Below are positions 10,102 to 51,560 of a DNA stretch of 64,000 nt, piece by piece. Positions within the stretch are counted from its first letter, which is position 1. Every line of letters begins with the position of its first letter. The DNA lies in the NCBI GenBank assembly GCA_964556325.1, contig CAZKVS010000002.1, positions 13,599-77,598 of the forward strand, read 5' to 3'. This stretch comes from an uncultured Candidatus Saccharibacteria bacterium. GTDB lineage: Bacteria > Patescibacteriota > Doudnabacteria > UBA920. The notes beneath the pieces were generated by a model. It ran no database searches, was not told the DNA's origin, and worked only from the letters and a program-made list of their open reading frames with translations. Position numbers and translations under genes: made by a program.

Positions 10102-10178
10102 TGGTGGTCGCACCTGGACTCGAACCGGGGACCTCACCGATGTGAACGGTGCGCTCTAACCAACTGAGCTATGCGACC
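10102..10178 (-). tRNA. tRNA-Val (anticodon CAC), CCA encoded
   Basis: Reverse complement folds as a cloverleaf: acceptor GGTCGCA/TGCGACC, D-stem GCTC/GAGC, anticodon stem CACCG/CGGTG with loop TTCACAT, T-loop TTCGAGT (one C·A mismatch in the T-stem). Confidence 0.75.
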
Positions 10179-10447
10179 GATGTGATACAAAATATTCTTC
10201 TCTCATCAACGGATACCGACGATATACCAGACCAGCTGCTTGTCCCTCGTAGTTCCGACTCTTAGTCGGAACGTAGGGGGAAGCTAATTGTCCGCCACAC
10301 CTATAAAATCCTGCGTACGTATCCAGAAAGGAAGCAATCTACGCGGAGATTAAACCAACTATACCATCCTAAACCTAACTATGCAAGATAATTAAGCCCA
10401 AAAAAATCCGCACAAAAGTGCAGTTTTTTGCTATACTTACATACACT

Positions 10448-22758: not shown

Positions 22759-22838
22759 TACATAAGTATACAACAGCTCCGGCATTTCATGCCGGAGCTG
22801 TTTCTATAAAATTATTATGTACTCTGTATGCGTCTTCT

Positions 22839-23333
22839 TTACTGCATACCTTTAGGAGTGAGAGTATGAAGACCAGCGGGTATAGTACCCACTTTAGAGC
22901 CTAAGCAAAAATAATACGCATAATCCGGATAGACCGTGAGACCATTATATGTGGAAGAAGTACCGCTCGCCACATAATAATAACCAACACTGGCCGGCTG
23001 ACCATTTGGGTATGTGAGAGCATCGCAGGGAGAATCGGTAGGCACCGGAGACACAGGCACTCGACCAATGAAATTTGGAGTCATATTATCCGGTTGGCTC
23101 ACATTAGTAGCAGCTGGATAGCCACGGTTGGATGTATTGAAAGACTCTAACGCTGTCATCATTTGGGTCATGTCCCCCGCCCTACGTGCATCCCGAGCTT
23201 TTGCGCGCGCGGAGTATATACTAACCATGACTACCGACGCCAATAAACCGATAATGGCAATAACGACCAACAACTCAATGAGGGTAAAACCTCTTTGAGT
23301 TGCATCTGGTTGCAGCTGATTTTTATTTTTCAT
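22839..23333 (-). CDS. Type IV pilin / pseudopilin (prepilin-type N-terminal cleavage/methylation domain)
   Basis: 'QRGFTLIELLVVIAIIGLLASVV' class III signal. Start taken at MKNKNQ (23333). The track ORF extended upstream across the tRNA-like region. Confidence 0.75.
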   Translation of the reverse strand: MKNKNQLQPDATQRGFTLIELLVVIAIIGLLASVVMVSIYSARAKARDARRAGDMTQMMTALESFNTSNRGYPAATNVSQPDNMTPNFIGRVPVSPVPTDSPCDALTYPNGQPASVGYYYVASGTSSTYNGLTVYPDYAYYFCLGSKVGTIPAGLHTLTPKGMQ

Positions 23334-23359
23334 ATCAAAAATTAATACGTGGATAATCC

Positions 23360-23400
23360 TAACACCATTATACCATAACGGGCTCTCATTTATAATAAAA
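23360..23400 (-). promoter_or_regulatory. Putative extended -10 promoter (TGGTATAAT) for the pilin gene
   Basis: Reverse complement of 23367-23375 reads TGGTATAAT, about 35 nt upstream of the pilin ATG. Perfect palindromes CCTCCGGTGTACACCGGAGG (23441-23460) and CTCCGGTGTAAAACCGGAG lie just upstream. Confidence 0.35.
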
Positions 23401-23590
23401 GCTTTAATACCCCAAGCATTCGGATACAATTCCTCCGGTGTACACCGGAGGACCACTTTTTCGGCCCCCGCCACTATTTCATACTCCAAGTATTCGCATG
23501 AACTCTCCGGTGTAAAACCGGAGCCGTTCTTTTCGACCCCACTTTCCCCAAACCATAAAAAAGAACCTACTTGCGTAGATTCTTTTTTCA

Positions 23591-23678
23591 TGGTGGGTCC
23601 GGCGGGAGTCGAACCCGCGACCGTTGGCTTAAAGTCCGCCAGCTGGCGGATCAACCAACTGAGCTACAAGACAGGTCC
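23591..23678 (-). pseudogene. Aberrant tRNA-Lys-like copy: 44-nt 3' half identical to tRNA-Lys, anticodon-stem 5' strand replaced by palindrome TCCGCCAGCTGGCGGA
   Basis: 23591-23634 is identical to 24003-24046 (T-arm, acceptor 3' strand, CCA). The D-arm is similar. The 5' acceptor strand (GGACCTG) cannot pair with the 3' strand, and the anticodon-stem region is replaced by a tight hairpin. It is followed by a hairpin plus T-run on the minus strand. Confidence 0.4.
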
Positions 23679-23960
23679 AACCTTCCGCTTTAAGAAAACT
23701 CTCCCCTGATAACTTTTTAGAACTTTCTCCCTGTGCAATGCCTCGTGTCTGGTTTCAAACTCTTCCTTATAAACAAGCTTCCATGGGCCAGCATGCTTGT
23801 GGGTATAAGAACTCTTTTTATGGGGAAGTAAACTATTGTGGCGGGCTAAACGGACATCTAAATTATCGGTTTGCCCAATGTAGATATTGCCTGTTAGATT
23901 GGTAATGGCATAAACTATATACATAGCAACTCCTGATACTATCAGTGAATCAAGATGCAT
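23664..23960 (-). CDS. Small GIY-YIG nuclease-superfamily protein (YhbQ/UPF0213-like)
   Basis: 'YIVYAI...GNIYIGQTDNLDVRLARHN...WKLVYKEEFETRHEALHREKVLK' GIY-YIG core. The last codons (GPVL*) are encoded by the tRNA-like remnant. Likely start at MYIVY (about 23925). Confidence 0.65.
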   Translation of the reverse strand: MHLDSLIVSGVAMYIVYAITNLTGNIYIGQTDNLDVRLARHNSLLPHKKSSYTHKHAGPWKLVYKEEFETRHEALHREKVLKSYQGRVFLKRKVGPVL

Positions 23961-23974
23961 GCACTATGTCAAAT

Positions 23975-24000
23975 AAAAAATCTCCTACTCGGAGGAGATT
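23975..24000 (-). terminator. Terminator after tRNA-Lys (AATCTCCT-cgagt-AGGAGATT plus T-run on the minus strand)
   Basis: Perfect 8-bp hairpin followed by TTTTTTATTT in the minus orientation. Confidence 0.7.
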
Positions 24001-24002
24001 TG

Positions 24003-24078
24003 TGGTGGGTCCGGCGGGAGTCGAACCCGCGACCGTTGGCTTAAAAGGCCACTGCTCTACCAACTGAGCTACAGACCC
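24003..24078 (-). tRNA. tRNA-Lys (anticodon TTT), CCA encoded
   Basis: Cloverleaf from the reverse complement: acceptor GGGTCTG/CGGACCC, D-stem GCTC/GAGC, anticodon loop CTTTTAA, T-arm GCGGG-TTCGACT-CCCGC. Close to E. coli tRNA-Lys. Confidence 0.85.
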
Positions 24079-24113
24079 ATATTCAAATGGTTTAACTAAG
24101 TACACCGAGACTA

Positions 24114-24172
24114 TCTTGGTCGTTGGCATAAAAGTCCCGCTTAGCGGGATCTACCAACTGAGCTACAGACCC
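24114..24172 (-). pseudogene. tRNA-Lys 5'-half-like fragment with a hairpin (TCCCGCTTAGCGGGA) in place of the anticodon-stem 5' strand
   Basis: GGGTCTGTAGCTCAGTTGGTAGA is identical to the tRNA-Lys 5' part, followed by a hairpin, then CTTTTATGCCAACG. There is no T-arm. It lies directly upstream (in the minus sense) of the intact tRNA-Lys. Confidence 0.35.
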
Positions 24173-24329
24173 CTACTACACCTAAAGCTCCGTAGGGCAA
24201 GCCTTATCTAGCCCACATAAAATACCATAATCTACAATATTTTTCAAGTCCAGTGATAATTTTTTTGACAAACCTCACAGCTAGTTTACACTACAATATA
24301 TCATTCCTAAGTACGCAATAACGCACTAT

Positions 24330-24752
24330 ATGAGTACGAATATTAACCGAGGAACTGTAATTATAACCCTTTCCATAGCCCTTCTCCTCATAGGTCTTGG
24401 CTATTTACACGCAAAGCAGCAGGAACCGGAATTTGGAGAAGGCACGACTCTACAAGCCGATATACCGGATTCCGAAGCAAACCAGATGGACTTGTCCCAA
24501 CTTTCCCAAGCTCAACTGTCTCCCGTCGACCAAGAAGCCAACCCGACTACTGGAACAACGCTCACCCGGCAAGGAACCTTGTTGGTGTCGGACAACCACA
24601 CACGAGGAAACCTCATGCTAAAAACCCCCACTAGTAATTTTTACTTTCGTACCAGTCGAGATTACTCTTCGCTTATAGGTAAATCGGTTACGGCCACTGG
24701 AAATGGCACAACTGAACAATTTAGTCTAACCGACATTATTGAGAACAAATAA
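24330..24752 (+). CDS. Hypothetical membrane-anchored protein
   Basis: N-terminal TM helix ('VIITLSIALLLIGLGYL'), then a polar Thr/Gln-rich domain. Its stop overlaps the next start (TAATG). Confidence 0.5.
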   Translation: MSTNINRGTVIITLSIALLLIGLGYLHAKQQEPEFGEGTTLQADIPDSEANQMDLSQLSQAQLSPVDQEANPTTGTTLTRQGTLLVSDNHTRGNLMLKTPTSNFYFRTSRDYSSLIGKSVTATGNGTTEQFSLTDIIENK

Positions 24753-25651
24753 TGCATATCTACACATTTCAAAATAAATGGGACTATGAACTAATCGATT
24801 CCGGCAATGGGAAACGACTTGAACGCTGGGGAAAATATATCCTGAGCCGGCCAGACCCGCAGGCTATCTGGACACCACACGCACATGAAAATGAGTGGCT
24901 TGCGAGTGATGCCATCTTTGATAGCAAATGGCATATCCGCACGAACGTAACCCAACCCTGGACAGTTACGTGGCCTTTACCGCTCGGACCAAAGCAGGCA
25001 GTGACGGGTAACTGGGACTTAAATCTTATTGCTCGTTTATCTTCGTTTAAGCATACAGGCGTCTTTGCTGAGCAAGCCGCCAATTGGGAATGGTTAGCGG
25101 AACAAACCCAAAATGGGAAATGGAAAGTAAAAAATGAAAAACCTAGAATACTCAACTTGTTTGGCTATACGGGAGCAGCGACGGTTCTCCTGGCCAAACT
25201 AGGTTGTTTTGTAACGCATGTCGATGCGTCCAAACCCACCATCGGATGGGCCAAAGAAAACCAAGCCGCAAATCGGCTACCCGAAGATAGCATTCGCTGG
25301 ATACTGGACGACTGTGTAAAATTTGTAAAACGAGAAGTTAAACGAGGCGCGCTCTATGACGGCATTATTTTAGACCCGCCTGCATATGGCCATACTCCGG
25401 GCGGGCAAACTTGGAAATTTGGGGAAGGATTACCAGACCTTCTCAGTCTTTGCGACCAACTTCTCTCCCCCACTGCTAAGTTTATACTGGTCAATGCCTA
25501 TGCTACCAACACTTCTAGTATTGCATTACAAAATGTTCTCGAGGACACAATTAAAAAAACTCGCACCACCATAGAAGTGGGCGAGCTTTGCCTTGAGCAG
25601 CGGGACCACCGCATACTATCCACCGGTATTGTGGCCCGATGCTCGCGGTAA
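24752..25651 (+). CDS. Class I SAM-dependent methyltransferase (RlmI/RlmK-like rRNA methyltransferase family)
   Basis: 'ILNLFGYTGAATVLLAKLG...HVDASK...ILDPP' SAM-binding motifs of the PF10672-type MTases. Confidence 0.7.
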   Translation: MHIYTFQNKWDYELIDSGNGKRLERWGKYILSRPDPQAIWTPHAHENEWLASDAIFDSKWHIRTNVTQPWTVTWPLPLGPKQAVTGNWDLNLIARLSSFKHTGVFAEQAANWEWLAEQTQNGKWKVKNEKPRILNLFGYTGAATVLLAKLGCFVTHVDASKPTIGWAKENQAANRLPEDSIRWILDDCVKFVKREVKRGALYDGIILDPPAYGHTPGGQTWKFGEGLPDLLSLCDQLLSPTAKFILVNAYATNTSSIALQNVLEDTIKKTRTTIEVGELCLEQRDHRILSTGIVARCSR

Positions 25652-48632: not shown

Positions 48633-48747
48633 GCCCAAGTGGTGAAATGGTATACACGCCCCGCCGAGGCGGGATGGGAGCAATCCCGTGGGAGTTTCCG
48701 CCTGAGGCGGACCCGCCTCAGGCGAGCGAGCTTTACAAATTATATTT
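48633..48747 (+). other. 26-nt duplicate of the tRNA-Leu 5' end followed by an 89-nt GC-rich structured element
   Basis: 48633-48658 is identical to 48748-48773. This is followed by hairpins CCGCC-GAG-GCGG, GGGA-GCAA-TCCC and a perfect 9-bp stem GCCTGAGGC-GGACCC-GCCTCAGGC. It stands out as GC-rich against the AT-rich surroundings. Confidence 0.6.
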
Positions 48748-48833
48748 GCCCAAGTGGTGAAATGGTATACACGTACGCTTCAGATGCGTATGACCGCAAG
48801 GTCGTGGAGGTTCGAGTCCTCTCTTGGGCACCA
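48748..48833 (+). tRNA. tRNA-Leu (anticodon CAG), type II with a long variable arm, CCA encoded
   Basis: Acceptor GCCCAAG/CTTGGGC, anticodon stem TACGC/GCGTA with loop TTCAGAT, variable arm GACC-GCAA-GGTC, T-loop TTCGAGT. Confidence 0.85.
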
Positions 48834-51522: not shown

Positions 51523-51560
51523 AAAAGTCCTCCGGTATAACACCGGAGGACTTTTTTATT
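51523..51560. terminator. Bidirectional terminator AAAAGTCCTCCGGT-ataa-CACCGGAGGACTTTT
   Basis: 14-bp hairpin flanked by A-run and T-run, between convergent rnj and the 51556 gene. Confidence 0.8.

What the first reader, a model, noticed from the sequence alone, without database searches (positions are those of the whole stretch)
23591..24178. tRNA-Lys locus with two aberrant tRNA-Lys copies flanking a GIY-YIG nuclease gene; the anticodon-stem 5' strands are replaced by tight palindromes
The intact tRNA-Lys(TTT) is at 24003-24078. A second copy (23591-23678) shares a 44-nt identical 3' half and a similar D-arm, but has TCCGCCAGCTGGCGGA where positions about 24-31 should be. Its 5' acceptor strand cannot pair. 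A third fragment (24114-24172) has the identical 5' half, then TCCCGCTTAGCGGGA, the anticodon-loop sequence, and no T-arm. Both palindromes begin with TCC and end with GGA, at the same position in the tRNA. The GIY-YIG gene (23664-23960) lies between the copies and its stop codon is encoded by the tRNA-like remnant. Possible explanations are repeated integration or excision at tRNA-Lys by a GIY-YIG-associated element, targeted palindrome insertion into tRNA genes, or tRNA-derived decoy or regulatory RNAs. Each copy has its own downstream terminator, so the aberrant copies may be transcribed.
Basis: seen in the sequence. Interest (0 to 1): 0.72.

Follow-up and report, generated by a model that had tools for sequence, protein, structure and literature searches.

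The report
Hairpin-marked GIY-YIG cassette invading tRNA genes
The two broken tRNA-Lys copies are the marks of a tiny nuclease-plus-hairpin cassette that has inserted at this tRNA gene, and the same kind of cassette sits beside tRNA genes in hundreds of bacteria from many phyla without, as far as I could find, having been described.

Summary
All features lie on the minus strand. In order they are copy A, the intact tRNA-Lys(UUU), a terminator, an 86-aa GIY-YIG gene, and copy C. Copy A is tRNA positions 1-23, then TCCCGCTAAGCGGGA, then positions 32-48. Copy C is a degenerate 5' arm, then TCCGCCAGCTGGCGGA, then an exact 43-nt 3' part. Neither copy is a tRNA.

Syntenic relatives show three states. 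Two have a plain tRNA-Lys, one has copy A only, and the window has copy A plus a 412-nt insertion holding the GIY-YIG gene and copy C. Both copies are therefore derived insertions.

The pattern is general. 69 of 97 homologous ORFs, from many phyla, have a same-strand tRNA gene within 100 nt. On the other side of the ORF there is usually a partial copy of that tRNA interrupted by a GC hairpin, consensus TCCGCC-N3-4-GGCGGA. A protein-blind DNA search for the junction found tRNA-Lys in 46 of 47 loci and the nuclease in 35 of 47. The window's tRNA-Leu has an ORF-less fragment of the same kind.

Best reading: a minimal mobile cassette built on an Slx1/UPF0213-like nuclease. The recombination mechanism is inferred, not shown. 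I found no prior description.

The parts
24219..24247 (-). Promoter-like site of the tRNA-Lys transcription unit: -35 TTGAAA, 17-nt spacer, TG-extended -10 TATTTT. It lies upstream of copy A.
   Evidence: The homologous CTTGAAA... promoter is present in L085 and L092.
24118..24172 (-). Copy A, a hairpin-interrupted 5' fragment of tRNA-Lys. Positions 1-23 are at 24172..24150, the hairpin TCCCGCTAAGCGGGA at 24149..24135, and positions 32-48-like at 24134..24118. There is no T arm.
   Evidence: It is shared with the syntenic relative L085, where the hairpin is TCCGCCAGCTGGCGGA (two compensatory stem changes), and absent from L092 and L090.
24079..24117 (-). Spacer between copy A and the intact tRNA. 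It is homologous to the L085 spacer. Its last 10 or so nt match the native upstream flank seen in the naive L092.
24003..24078 (-). Intact, functional-looking tRNA-Lys(UUU), identical in sequence to that of L085 and of the naive L092.
23970..24001 (-). Intrinsic terminator after the intact tRNA. It belongs to the inserted segment and is a diverged copy of the terminator after copy C.
   Evidence: family D3.
23591..24002 (-). The 412-nt segment that is present in the window and absent from the syntenic L085: terminator, promoter/RBS region, GIY-YIG ORF, degenerate tRNA 5' arm, hairpin, and the 43-nt direct repeat of tRNA positions 34-76.
   Evidence: exact 43-nt repeat at 412-nt spacing.
23664..23924 (-). 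Gene for an 86-aa stand-alone GIY-YIG nuclease of the Slx1/UPF0213-like branch. An in-frame upstream ATG at 23960 would give 98 aa. The stop codon lies inside copy C.
   Evidence: Pfam PF01541 at 59 bits. Catalytic residues are conserved. The closest solved structures are 1zg2 and 1ywl, then SLX1. The database holds this sequence as an 86-aa protein, P0001.
23591..23673 (-). Copy C, a hairpin-interrupted tRNA-Lys copy. The degenerate 5' arm is at 23673..23651, the hairpin TCCGCCAGCTGGCGGA at 23650..23635, and an exact copy of positions 34-76 with CCA at 23633..23591.
   Evidence: The identical 16-mer hairpin occurs in L001, L005, L020 and in L085's copy A.
23556..23588 (-). Terminator after copy C. 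It occupies the same position as the native tRNA-Lys terminator of L085 and L092.
   Evidence: Read from the sequence; alignment.
48633..48726 (+). A second locus of the same kind without an ORF. An exact copy of tRNA-Leu(CAG) positions 1-26 (48633..48658) is followed by three GC hairpins: CCCGCCGAGGCGGG, TCCGCCTGAGGCGGA (48697..48711) and CGCCTCAGGCG. It lies just upstream of the intact tRNA-Leu at 48748..48833.

Best explanation
The tRNA-Lys locus has been invaded at least twice by members of a widespread family of minimal selfish cassettes.

Each cassette has two parts:
- an ~85-aa single-domain GIY-YIG nuclease gene of the Slx1/UPF0213-like branch;
- a conserved GC hairpin, consensus TCCGCC-N3-4-GGCGGA, which lies within about 35 nt of the ORF on the side away from the intact tRNA and is embedded in a partial copy of the target tRNA.

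Insertion leaves one intact tRNA gene and one hairpin-interrupted, non-functional copy. The layout is either fragment-hairpin-ORF-tRNA ('U') or tRNA-ORF-hairpin-fragment ('D'). In the window, copy C plus the ORF is a D-type insertion of 412 nt bounded by a 43-nt direct repeat of the tRNA 3' part. Copy A is an older U-type fragment that has no ORF.

Inferred mechanism (not shown):
1. The nuclease is too small to read a long asymmetric site.
2. It nicks or cuts at the hairpin, or at the structure the hairpin forms in single-stranded DNA.
3. Host homologous recombination then uses the tRNA-derived arms on either side of the hairpin to copy or integrate the cassette at a tRNA gene.
4. A crossover in the 5' arm gives the U layout, and a crossover in the 3' arm gives the D layout.
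5. tRNA genes supply near-universal homology arms and a ready transcription unit.
6. Repeated breaks at these loci would account for the tandem arrays, the ORF-less fragments and the copies with several hairpins.
For: **Shown**
- Anatomy of the locus.
- A three-state syntenic series. L092 and L090 are naive, L085 has copy A only, and the window has copy A plus the 412-nt insert. The tRNA-Lys is identical in the window, L085 and L092.
- Of the 97 homologous ORFs found in the loci held (4 from look-ups plus the best 80 of 458 confirmed genome hits, from many phyla), 69 have a same-strand tRNA within 100 nt. A further 11 lie near contig ends.
- A partial copy of that same tRNA, split by a 14-20-nt GC hairpin, lies across the ORF in most loci.
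- The hairpin ends 12-35 nt before the ATG in most U loci (extremes 12-61). In D loci it starts between -22 and +17 nt from the stop.
- 59 of 77 ORFs have a GC hairpin of at least 6 bp nearby, against 12 of 213 control windows.
- A protein-blind metagenome scan for the D-arm/hairpin junction gave 114 stretches. Of 47 with enough flank, 46 have tRNA-Lys and 35 have the nuclease gene.
- In that scan the inner stem pairs were complementary in 81 of 81 cases although the pattern did not require it.
- Relatives 60-75% identical sit at different tRNA isotypes and in both layouts.
- Tandem arrays and multi-hairpin copies exist: L055, L048, L104, L034, L097.
- Duplications can include upstream flank or promoter (L043, L099). 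This points to a DNA-level process rather than an RNA-level one.
- The nuclease is in the Slx1 branch, whose characterised members are structure-specific.

**Inferred**
- That the nuclease acts on the hairpin.
- That integration is recombination-dependent through the tRNA arms.
Against: - No cleavage data exist, so the nuclease's substrate (hairpin, tRNA gene or neither) is unknown.
- A hydrolytic GIY-YIG enzyme cannot rejoin DNA, so everything after the cut rests on host functions I could not examine.
- The simple ends-in and crossover models predict loss or doubling of the hairpin in some outcomes. They do not by themselves explain why exactly one copy keeps it.
- The tRNA arms are short (15-45 nt), near the lower limit for RecA-dependent recombination.
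- The intact tRNA next to the cassette is identical to the naive allele. A classical homing scheme in which the tRNA sequence is the cleavage site would therefore mean cutting its own locus.
- 18 of 77 ORFs lacked a detectable strict hairpin.
- The family is almost absent from viral contigs (1 weak hit), so the route of horizontal transfer is unknown.
Confidence: 0.7

Rival explanations
1. Classical homing. The nuclease recognises the tRNA gene itself, as T4 SegB recognises the TpsiC motif. It cuts naive alleles in the region later replaced by the hairpin, and the hairpin is simply the insert that makes the spare copy uncuttable.
For: - SegB is a precedent for a GIY-YIG enzyme that reads a tRNA motif.
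- Within a clade, the hairpins replace a constant tRNA segment: positions 23/24-31 in Lys, 24-34 in Asn, 10-16 in Val/Ile.
- Second hairpins hit the T loop, the other most conserved tRNA motif.
- Presence/absence polymorphism exists.
Against: - An 86-aa catalytic domain has no DNA-binding domain with which to read a long asymmetric site.
- The intact tRNA beside the cassette is identical to the naive allele and would stay cuttable.
- The hairpin sequence is conserved across elements at different tRNAs, including the identical 16-mer at proteins 54-58% identical. An insert that only needs to disrupt a site does not need this.
Confidence: 0.15
2. RNA-level function. The hairpin-tRNA pieces are structured untranslated regions that stabilise or process the nuclease mRNA within the tRNA transcript. 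Alternatively, they are tRNA-like decoy or regulatory RNAs.
For: - The ORF is embedded in the tRNA transcription unit. In U loci the stop codon abuts tRNA position +1, so RNase P would release the mRNA.
- Stem complementarity is maintained with variable loops.
- In tRNA-Lys loci the hairpin plus CUUUU looks terminator-like.
Against: - Neither copy scores as a tRNA, and the acceptor stems cannot form.
- There is no excess of G.U over A.C mismatches on the sense strand: 19 against 17 overall, and about 5 against 5 among TCC...GGA hairpins.
- No U-run follows the hairpin at non-Lys tRNAs.
- ORF-less fragments and multi-hairpin copies are hard to explain as untranslated regions.
- Folding z-scores are unremarkable, about -1.8.
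Confidence: 0.08
3. Not a mobile element. A host Slx1-like repair nuclease is kept next to highly transcribed tRNA genes to resolve hairpins, R-loops or stalled forks. The fragments are by-products of recombination at fragile tRNA loci.
For: - Membership of the Slx1 branch, whose bacterial members were predicted to act in repair and were not counted among the selfish lineages.
- Tandem arrays resemble repeat-maintenance phenotypes.
- The family is nearly absent from viral contigs.
Against: - Patchy presence among close syntenic relatives.
- One gene beside one of many tRNAs per genome, with the partner tRNA differing between close homologues.
- A conserved hairpin travels with the ORF.
- Up to five tandem ORF copies, in L055.
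Confidence: 0.06
4. Leftovers of an ordinary integrase-mediated genomic island or prophage at a tRNA attachment site, or a split, permuted or intron-containing tRNA.
For: A 43-nt direct repeat of the tRNA 3' end flanks the insert, as at attL/attR sites.
Against: - The insert is 412 nt and encodes only the nuclease; there is no recombinase.
- Copy A duplicates the 5' end, not the 3' end.
- An intact tRNA-Lys sits between the pieces, so they are not halves of a split gene.
- There are no group I intron or other Rfam hits.
Confidence: 0.01

Closest known systems
Free-standing GIY-YIG homing endonuclease genes of T4-like phages, especially SegB in the T4 tRNA gene cluster (PMC2330249)
   Same: A GIY-YIG nuclease gene lies among tRNA genes. 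It is present or absent between relatives and spreads with its flanks. SegB's recognition site includes a conserved tRNA motif.
   Different: - SegB-type enzymes carry a DNA-binding domain; this protein is the bare 86-aa catalytic domain of the Slx1 branch.
- These cassettes are chromosomal and almost absent from viral contigs.
- They carry a conserved hairpin and always leave a partial, hairpin-interrupted duplicate of the tRNA.
Slx1 / bacterial UPF0213 (YhbQ, BH0048, EF2693) structure-specific GIY-YIG nucleases
   Same: They are the best sequence matches to solved structures (1zg2, 1ywl, then SLX1). Both are the minimal domain lacking the C-terminal Asn of the UvrC/I-TevI lineage.
   Different: The characterised or predicted roles are DNA repair and repeat maintenance. 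The 2006 phylogenomic survey of the superfamily mentions neither tRNA-gene linkage nor an associated hairpin.
Integrative elements that target tRNA genes and restore them (attB in the tRNA 3' end)
   Same: The insertion is bounded by a direct repeat of the tRNA 3' part, and an intact tRNA is regenerated.
   Different: - There is no tyrosine or serine recombinase.
- The element is about 0.4 kb rather than kilobases.
- Either the 5' or the 3' part can be duplicated.
- The junction carries a hairpin.
REP/REPIN sequences with their RAYT transposases, and IS200/IS605 (from my own knowledge, plus PMC3733652 as listed)
   Same: Short GC-rich palindromes have conserved ends and variable loops. They flank the gene of the enzyme thought to move them and also occur as copies without the gene.
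   Different: - The enzyme here is a hydrolytic GIY-YIG nuclease, not an HUH/Y1 transposase.
- The hairpins seen here sit in tRNA-derived sequence rather than being scattered between genes.
Mobile GC clusters of yeast mitochondrial DNA (from my own knowledge)
   Same: Very short GC-rich palindromes insert repeatedly into and between genes, and how they move is unknown.
   Different: They occur in organelles, have no dedicated adjacent nuclease gene, and show no tRNA-copy context.

Membership tests
GIY-YIG nuclease superfamily, Slx1/UPF0213-like branch | GIY-YIG catalytic domain above the Pfam threshold | tested here: met
   PF01541 at 59.3 bits against a cut-off of 22.6, E 4.6e-16.
GIY-YIG nuclease superfamily, Slx1/UPF0213-like branch | Conserved catalytic Tyr (GIY), Tyr-x-Gly (YIG), Arg and Glu, and no C-terminal Asn of the UvrC/I-TevI lineage | tested here: met
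   Invariant Y5, Y15, G17, R25, H29, E66 and K70 in alignment A2. The branch criterion comes from PMC1564403.
GIY-YIG nuclease superfamily, Slx1/UPF0213-like branch | Closest solved relatives are UPF0213 or SLX1 | tested here: met
   1zg2 at E 1.4e-12, 1ywl at 2.6e-12, SLX1 at 1e-5, I-TevI at only 2e-3.
GIY-YIG nuclease superfamily, Slx1/UPF0213-like branch | Nuclease activity and substrate preference | not testable with these tools
   Needs biochemistry.
Free-standing homing endonuclease gene | Presence/absence of the ORF at one conserved locus among relatives | tested here: met
   The window against L085, L092 and L090.
Free-standing homing endonuclease gene | A DNA-binding module that reads a long asymmetric target | tested here: not met
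   The 86-aa protein is catalytic domain only.
Free-standing homing endonuclease gene | The donor allele is protected by a change in the target site | tested here: inconclusive
   The hairpin copy is altered, but the adjacent intact tRNA is identical to the naive allele.
Free-standing homing endonuclease gene | The enzyme cleaves the ORF-less allele and is preferentially inherited | not testable with these tools
   Needs cleavage and cross experiments.
Integrase-mediated tRNA-targeting island | Direct repeat of the tRNA end bounding the insert | tested here: met
   43-nt exact repeat at 412-nt spacing.
Integrase-mediated tRNA-targeting island | A tyrosine or serine recombinase encoded in the element | tested here: not met
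   The 412-nt insert holds only the GIY-YIG ORF.
REP/RAYT or IS200/IS605-type hairpin elements | A conserved hairpin beside the enzyme gene, plus copies without the gene | tested here: met
   (hairpin beside the ORF). Copy A, the tRNA-Leu fragment, L099, L097 and L117 lack the gene.
REP/RAYT or IS200/IS605-type hairpin elements | An HUH/Y1 transposase | tested here: not met
   The only ORF is GIY-YIG.
Bona fide tRNA, or split/intron-containing tRNA | Covariance-model score above threshold and a pairable acceptor stem | tested here: not met
   There is no RF00005 hit for copies A or C at E up to 10, and ARAGORN calls only the intact gene. Folds show no cloverleaf.

The most novel reading that the evidence does not exclude
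The TCCGCC...GGCGGA hairpin is a REP-like element cut by a bare Slx1-like GIY-YIG domain. Together they would form one of the smallest autonomous DNA mobile elements of bacteria, at about 0.35-0.4 kb. It would have no transposase or recombinase. It would spread by break-induced host recombination, using tRNA genes as universal homology arms and transcription units, and would seed hairpin-disrupted tRNA pseudogenes across many phyla.
Probability: 0.4. Interest if true: 0.88.

Novelty: new variant of a known kind. Interest (0 to 1): 0.78.

Why it matters
- **A new role for a nuclease branch.** If the reading holds, a branch of GIY-YIG nucleases treated as housekeeping repair enzymes includes a large, cross-phylum family of selfish cassettes specialised on tRNA genes.
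- **A new minimal design.** The cassette is one catalytic domain plus one 15-nt hairpin. That raises a testable question: how can a hydrolytic nuclease with no recognition domain achieve such precise genomic targeting?
- **Practical consequences.** It explains a class of hairpin-bearing tRNA pseudogenes. These confuse tRNA annotation: ARAGORN called some of them 'tRNA-???'. They may also break metagenome assemblies at tRNA loci, since contigs of close relatives end there.
- **Genome dynamics.** It identifies tRNA loci in reduced Patescibacteria genomes as sites of ongoing rearrangement.
- **Tractable systems.** Cultured carriers are available for experiments: Flavobacterium tiangeerense CGMCC 1.6847 (L046) and Eudoraea adriatica DSM 19308 (L052).

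Tried and rejected
- **Source contig.** Looking up the contig through the nuclease protein returned nothing on record. The neighbouring methyltransferase was used instead.
- **Rfam.** A permissive search gave only the intact tRNA plus weak tmRNA and tmRNA_permuted hits. Their alignments show these rest on the T arm. I rejected tmRNA-like or permuted-tmRNA readings.
- **Split, permuted or intron-containing tRNA.** Rejected, because an intact tRNA lies between the pieces and the palindromes are self-complementary rather than complementary to each other.
- **Hairpin as a transcription terminator.** Plausible only for tRNA-Lys, where CTTTT follows the hairpin. There is no T-run at Asn, Arg, Asp, Val or Ile loci.
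- **RNA versus DNA structure.** The test of G.U against A.C mismatches on the sense strand was inconclusive: 19 against 17, and about 5 against 5 for TCC...GGA hairpins.
- **Defence system.** No meaningful PADLOC hit.
- **Phage origin.** PHROGs gave only weak generic homing-endonuclease hits. The viral contig scan gave one weak hit.
- **Literature.** Eight full-text searches and a reading of the GIY-YIG phylogenomic survey found no description of tRNA-linked small GIY-YIG genes with hairpins. The library omits most subscription journals, so absence is not proof.
- **Hairpin count in the window.** TCC...GGA hairpins number 19 against 3.4 expected. Two of them, at 22778 and 51531, lie just after gene ends, so this count alone is not evidence for the element.
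Full report
**1. What is in the window**

All features lie on the minus strand. In order of transcription they are:

- a sigma-70-like promoter, with -35 TTGAAA at 24247 and a TG-extended -10 ending at 24219;
- copy A, 24172..24118;
- a 39-nt spacer;
- the intact tRNA-Lys(UUU), 24078..24003, found by ARAGORN and by Rfam at 73 bits;
- an intrinsic terminator, 24001..23970;
- a short region with AGGAG;
- a GIY-YIG ORF, 23924..23664;
- copy C, about 23673..23591;
- a second terminator.

Copy A is tRNA positions 1-23 exact, then TCCCGCTAAGCGGGA, then CTTTTATGCCAACGACC (positions 32-48-like). It has no T arm.

Copy C has 15 nt identical to positions 6-20, preceded by a non-pairing 5' end that encodes the last codons and the TAG stop of the ORF. 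Then comes TCCGCCAGCTGGCGGA, then a 43-nt exact copy of positions 34-76 with CCA.

Neither copy is recognised as a tRNA, and neither folds as a cloverleaf. The repeat is 43 nt, not 44. The ORF starts most likely at 23924. Copy A's 'terminator' is its own hairpin.

**2. The two aberrant copies are insertions**

The neighbouring methyltransferase (24752..25651) has close homologues on long contigs with the same gene order. Three states were found.

| Locus | Methyltransferase identity | State |
|---|---|---|
| L092 | 65% | promoter, tRNA-Lys, terminator only; tRNA identical to the window's |
| L090 | 66% | plain tRNA-Lys |
| L085 | 77% | promoter, copy-A homologue, homologous spacer, identical tRNA-Lys, terminator; no ORF, no copy C |
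| Window | - | copy A, tRNA-Lys, GIY-YIG ORF, copy C |

In L085 the sequence after the terminator continues straight into what follows copy C's terminator in the window. The three-way alignment shows that the window carries an extra 412 nt (24002..23591). This segment is bounded by the 43-nt direct repeat.

The hairpin in L085's copy A is TCCGCCAGCTGGCGGA, against TCCCGCTAAGCGGGA in the window. Two stem pairs have changed on both sides, so complementarity has been kept.

**3. The pattern is general**

- *The protein.* It is a single GIY-YIG domain. Contigs encoding three homologues already showed the same theme. Two had a 5' tRNA-Lys copy with a TCC...GGA hairpin, then the ORF, then an intact tRNA-Lys (L001, L002). 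One had tRNA-Phe, the ORF, and a hairpin-interrupted tRNA-Phe copy (L004).
- *Wider search.* A profile search of one genome per species found 458 confirmed relatives. The best 80 come from Patescibacteria, Bacteroidota, Ignavibacteria, Acidobacteriota, Nitrospirota, Desulfobacterota, Margulisbacteria and others.
- *tRNA linkage.* Of the 97 ORFs in the loci held, 69 have a same-strand tRNA gene within 100 nt. A further 11 lie near contig ends. Fourteen isotypes are involved.
- *Partial tRNA copy.* Across the ORF from the intact tRNA there is usually a partial copy of that same tRNA in two blocks. The blocks are separated by a 14-20-nt GC hairpin, most often TCCGCC-N3-4-GGCGGA. Variants include TCCGGC/GCCGGA, TCCCGN/NCGGGA and, at Bacteroidota tRNA-Arg, CCTGCC/GGCAGG.
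- *Position of the hairpin.* It ends 12-35 nt before the ATG in most loci where the tRNA follows the ORF (U layout; extremes 12-61). It starts between -22 and +17 nt from the stop when the tRNA precedes the ORF (D layout).
- *Enrichment.* A GC hairpin of at least 6 bp lies beside 59 of 77 ORFs, against 12 of 213 control windows from the same loci.

**4. An independent, protein-blind test**

I searched metagenome contigs for the DNA junction alone: GGTAGA, then TCCSSC-N3-4-GSSGGA, then CTTT. This gave 114 stretches.

- Of the 47 held loci with at least 450 nt on both sides, 46 have a same-strand tRNA-Lys and 35 have a GIY-YIG ORF within 450 nt.
- The pattern did not force the two inner stem pairs to be complementary, yet they were in 81 of 81 distinct cases. 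Chance would give about a quarter. Loops vary.
- All permutations occur: hairpin-ORF-tRNA (the commonest), tRNA-ORF-hairpin, hairpin-tRNA, tRNA-hairpin, hairpins on both sides, and arrays.
- The window's order, hairpin-tRNA-ORF-hairpin, is one of these.
- Downstream copies often carry a second hairpin replacing the T loop (L097, L163, L096, L104).
- L034 has fragments with two or three hairpins.

**5. Signs of a recombination-prone, mobile DNA element**

- Tandem arrays include five ORF units of 382 nt after tRNA-Asn (L055), at least four 80-nt hairpin fragments before tRNA-Asn (L048), five 52-nt fragments (L104) and doubled units (L043, L022, L045).
- Some duplications include upstream flank or promoter (L043, L099). 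The copies therefore arise at the DNA level, not from processed tRNA.
- In the window the two terminators are also diverged copies of one another (family D3).
- Proteins 60-75% identical sit beside different isotypes and in opposite layouts, for example Tyr/U against Asn/D at 70%.
- The identical 16-nt hairpin of copy C recurs in elements whose proteins are only 54-58% identical and which sit at Lys or Asn genes.
- Within the window a third locus belongs to the family. An exact copy of tRNA-Leu positions 1-26 is followed by three GC hairpins just upstream of the intact tRNA-Leu, with no ORF.
- There is only one GIY-YIG gene in the 64 kb.

**6. The enzyme**

The closest solved structures are the UPF0213 proteins BH0048 and EF2693, then SLX1. 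I-TevI and UvrC are much weaker matches. The invariant residues fit the Slx1-type active site.

The 2006 phylogenomic survey places these stand-alone bacterial proteins in the Slx1 family. It calls them the minimal form of the domain, predicts a repair role, and derives the selfish homing and restriction enzymes from the other (UvrC-like) lineage. It mentions neither tRNA-gene linkage nor hairpins.

With 86 residues and no extra domain, reading a long asymmetric tRNA site as SegB does seems unlikely. Recognising a small structure or a short dyad is more plausible. This is inference.

**7. How it most likely works**

*Shown.* The cassette is an insertion. It always leaves one intact tRNA and one hairpin-interrupted copy. 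The hairpin lies at the junction between cassette and disrupted copy. Its stem is under selection for pairing.

*Inferred.* A circular or linear copy carrying 'tRNA 5' arm - hairpin - tRNA 3' arm - ORF' recombines with a tRNA gene. A crossover in the 5' arm gives the U layout, and one in the 3' arm gives the D layout. This reproduces both observed architectures and the 43-nt repeat in the window. The nuclease would stimulate the process by nicking or cutting at the hairpin. Repeated breaks would yield arrays, ORF-less fragments and multi-hairpin copies.

*Open points.*
- Why exactly one copy keeps the hairpin.
- How the arms come to match each new tRNA.
- How the DNA moves between cells. The family is almost absent from viral contigs.

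The main rival is classical homing on the tRNA sequence, with the hairpin as an immunising insert. It fits the constant replaced segment within clades and the T-loop hits. It is weakened by the tiny protein and by the unchanged intact tRNA. An RNA-level role is not excluded but received no support.

**8. Novelty and verdict**

Eight full-text searches and the survey paper gave no description of this association. The library is incomplete, so prior description cannot be ruled out.

I rate it a new variant of a known kind: a selfish nuclease cassette that targets tRNA genes. Its unusual features are a minimal Slx1-like enzyme, an obligatory conserved hairpin, and systematic partial tRNA duplication.

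Noticed in passing
window 48633-48726 (+), upstream of tRNA-Leu(CAG) at 48748-48833: An exact 26-nt copy of the tRNA-Leu 5' end is followed by three GC hairpins, two of them reverse-complement versions of each other (GCCTGAGGC and GCCTCAGGC). There is no nuclease ORF. This is an ORF-less relative of copy A.
   Followed up: partly
window 23400-23560, between copy C's terminator and the pilin-like gene (22839-23342, minus strand): Two roughly 70-nt repeat units (GGGGyCGAAAAG..hairpin..CGAATACTTGGrGTAT) each carry a TCCGGTG(T/A)A(C/A)ACCGGA hairpin. On the plus strand both score as terminators. L085 has the homologous segment with a different but still paired hairpin, GTTCTGCAACTAGCAGAAT. It may be a structured leader or a small RNA. 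The weak tmRNA_permuted hit there spans copy C's T arm and this region and is far below threshold (23.7 against 47 bits).
   Followed up: partly
window 10254-10270, about 76 nt upstream of tRNA-Val(CAC) at 10102-10178 (minus strand): TCCGACTCTTAGTCGGA, a 7-bp TCC...GGA hairpin, lies near the third tRNA of the window. I saw no tRNA-Val fragment next to it.
   Followed up: no
L086, L087, L088, L089 (contigs of close relatives): Four independent contigs carrying the 77-83% identical methyltransferase end 100-310 nt upstream of the 142-146-aa gene. That is at or just before where the tRNA-Lys/hairpin region should be. The repeats may break short-read assemblies.
   Followed up: no
L122 25-106; L159 7807-7888 and 7974-8055: ARAGORN calls hairpin-interrupted tRNA-Lys copies 'tRNA-???' with a 4-base anticodon (ggcg), taking the hairpin for an anticodon arm. 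This is an annotation pitfall.
   Followed up: no
Proteins P0002, P0005, P0007; L055 ORFs: Several annotated homologues have N- or C-terminal tails that look like read-through of tRNA-like or hairpin DNA. For P0002 this is shown: its tail ...DPPTGGL... matches window DNA across the copy C hairpin in tblastn. In L055 the stop codon lies 20 nt past the hairpin start.
   Followed up: partly
window 22778-22796 and 51531-51547: Other TCCGG...CCGGA hairpins lie just after gene ends: 43 nt after the pilin-like ORF and 21 nt after the 644-aa ORF. They look like ordinary terminators, so TCC...GGA hairpins in this genome are not all cassette-related.
   Followed up: no
L005 1833-2000: After the intact tRNA-Lys of a U-type locus there are two further tandem hairpin-tRNA copies, each with a degenerate 5' arm and a perfect 3' half ending in CCA. 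They closely resemble the window's copy C but have no ORF between them.
   Followed up: partly
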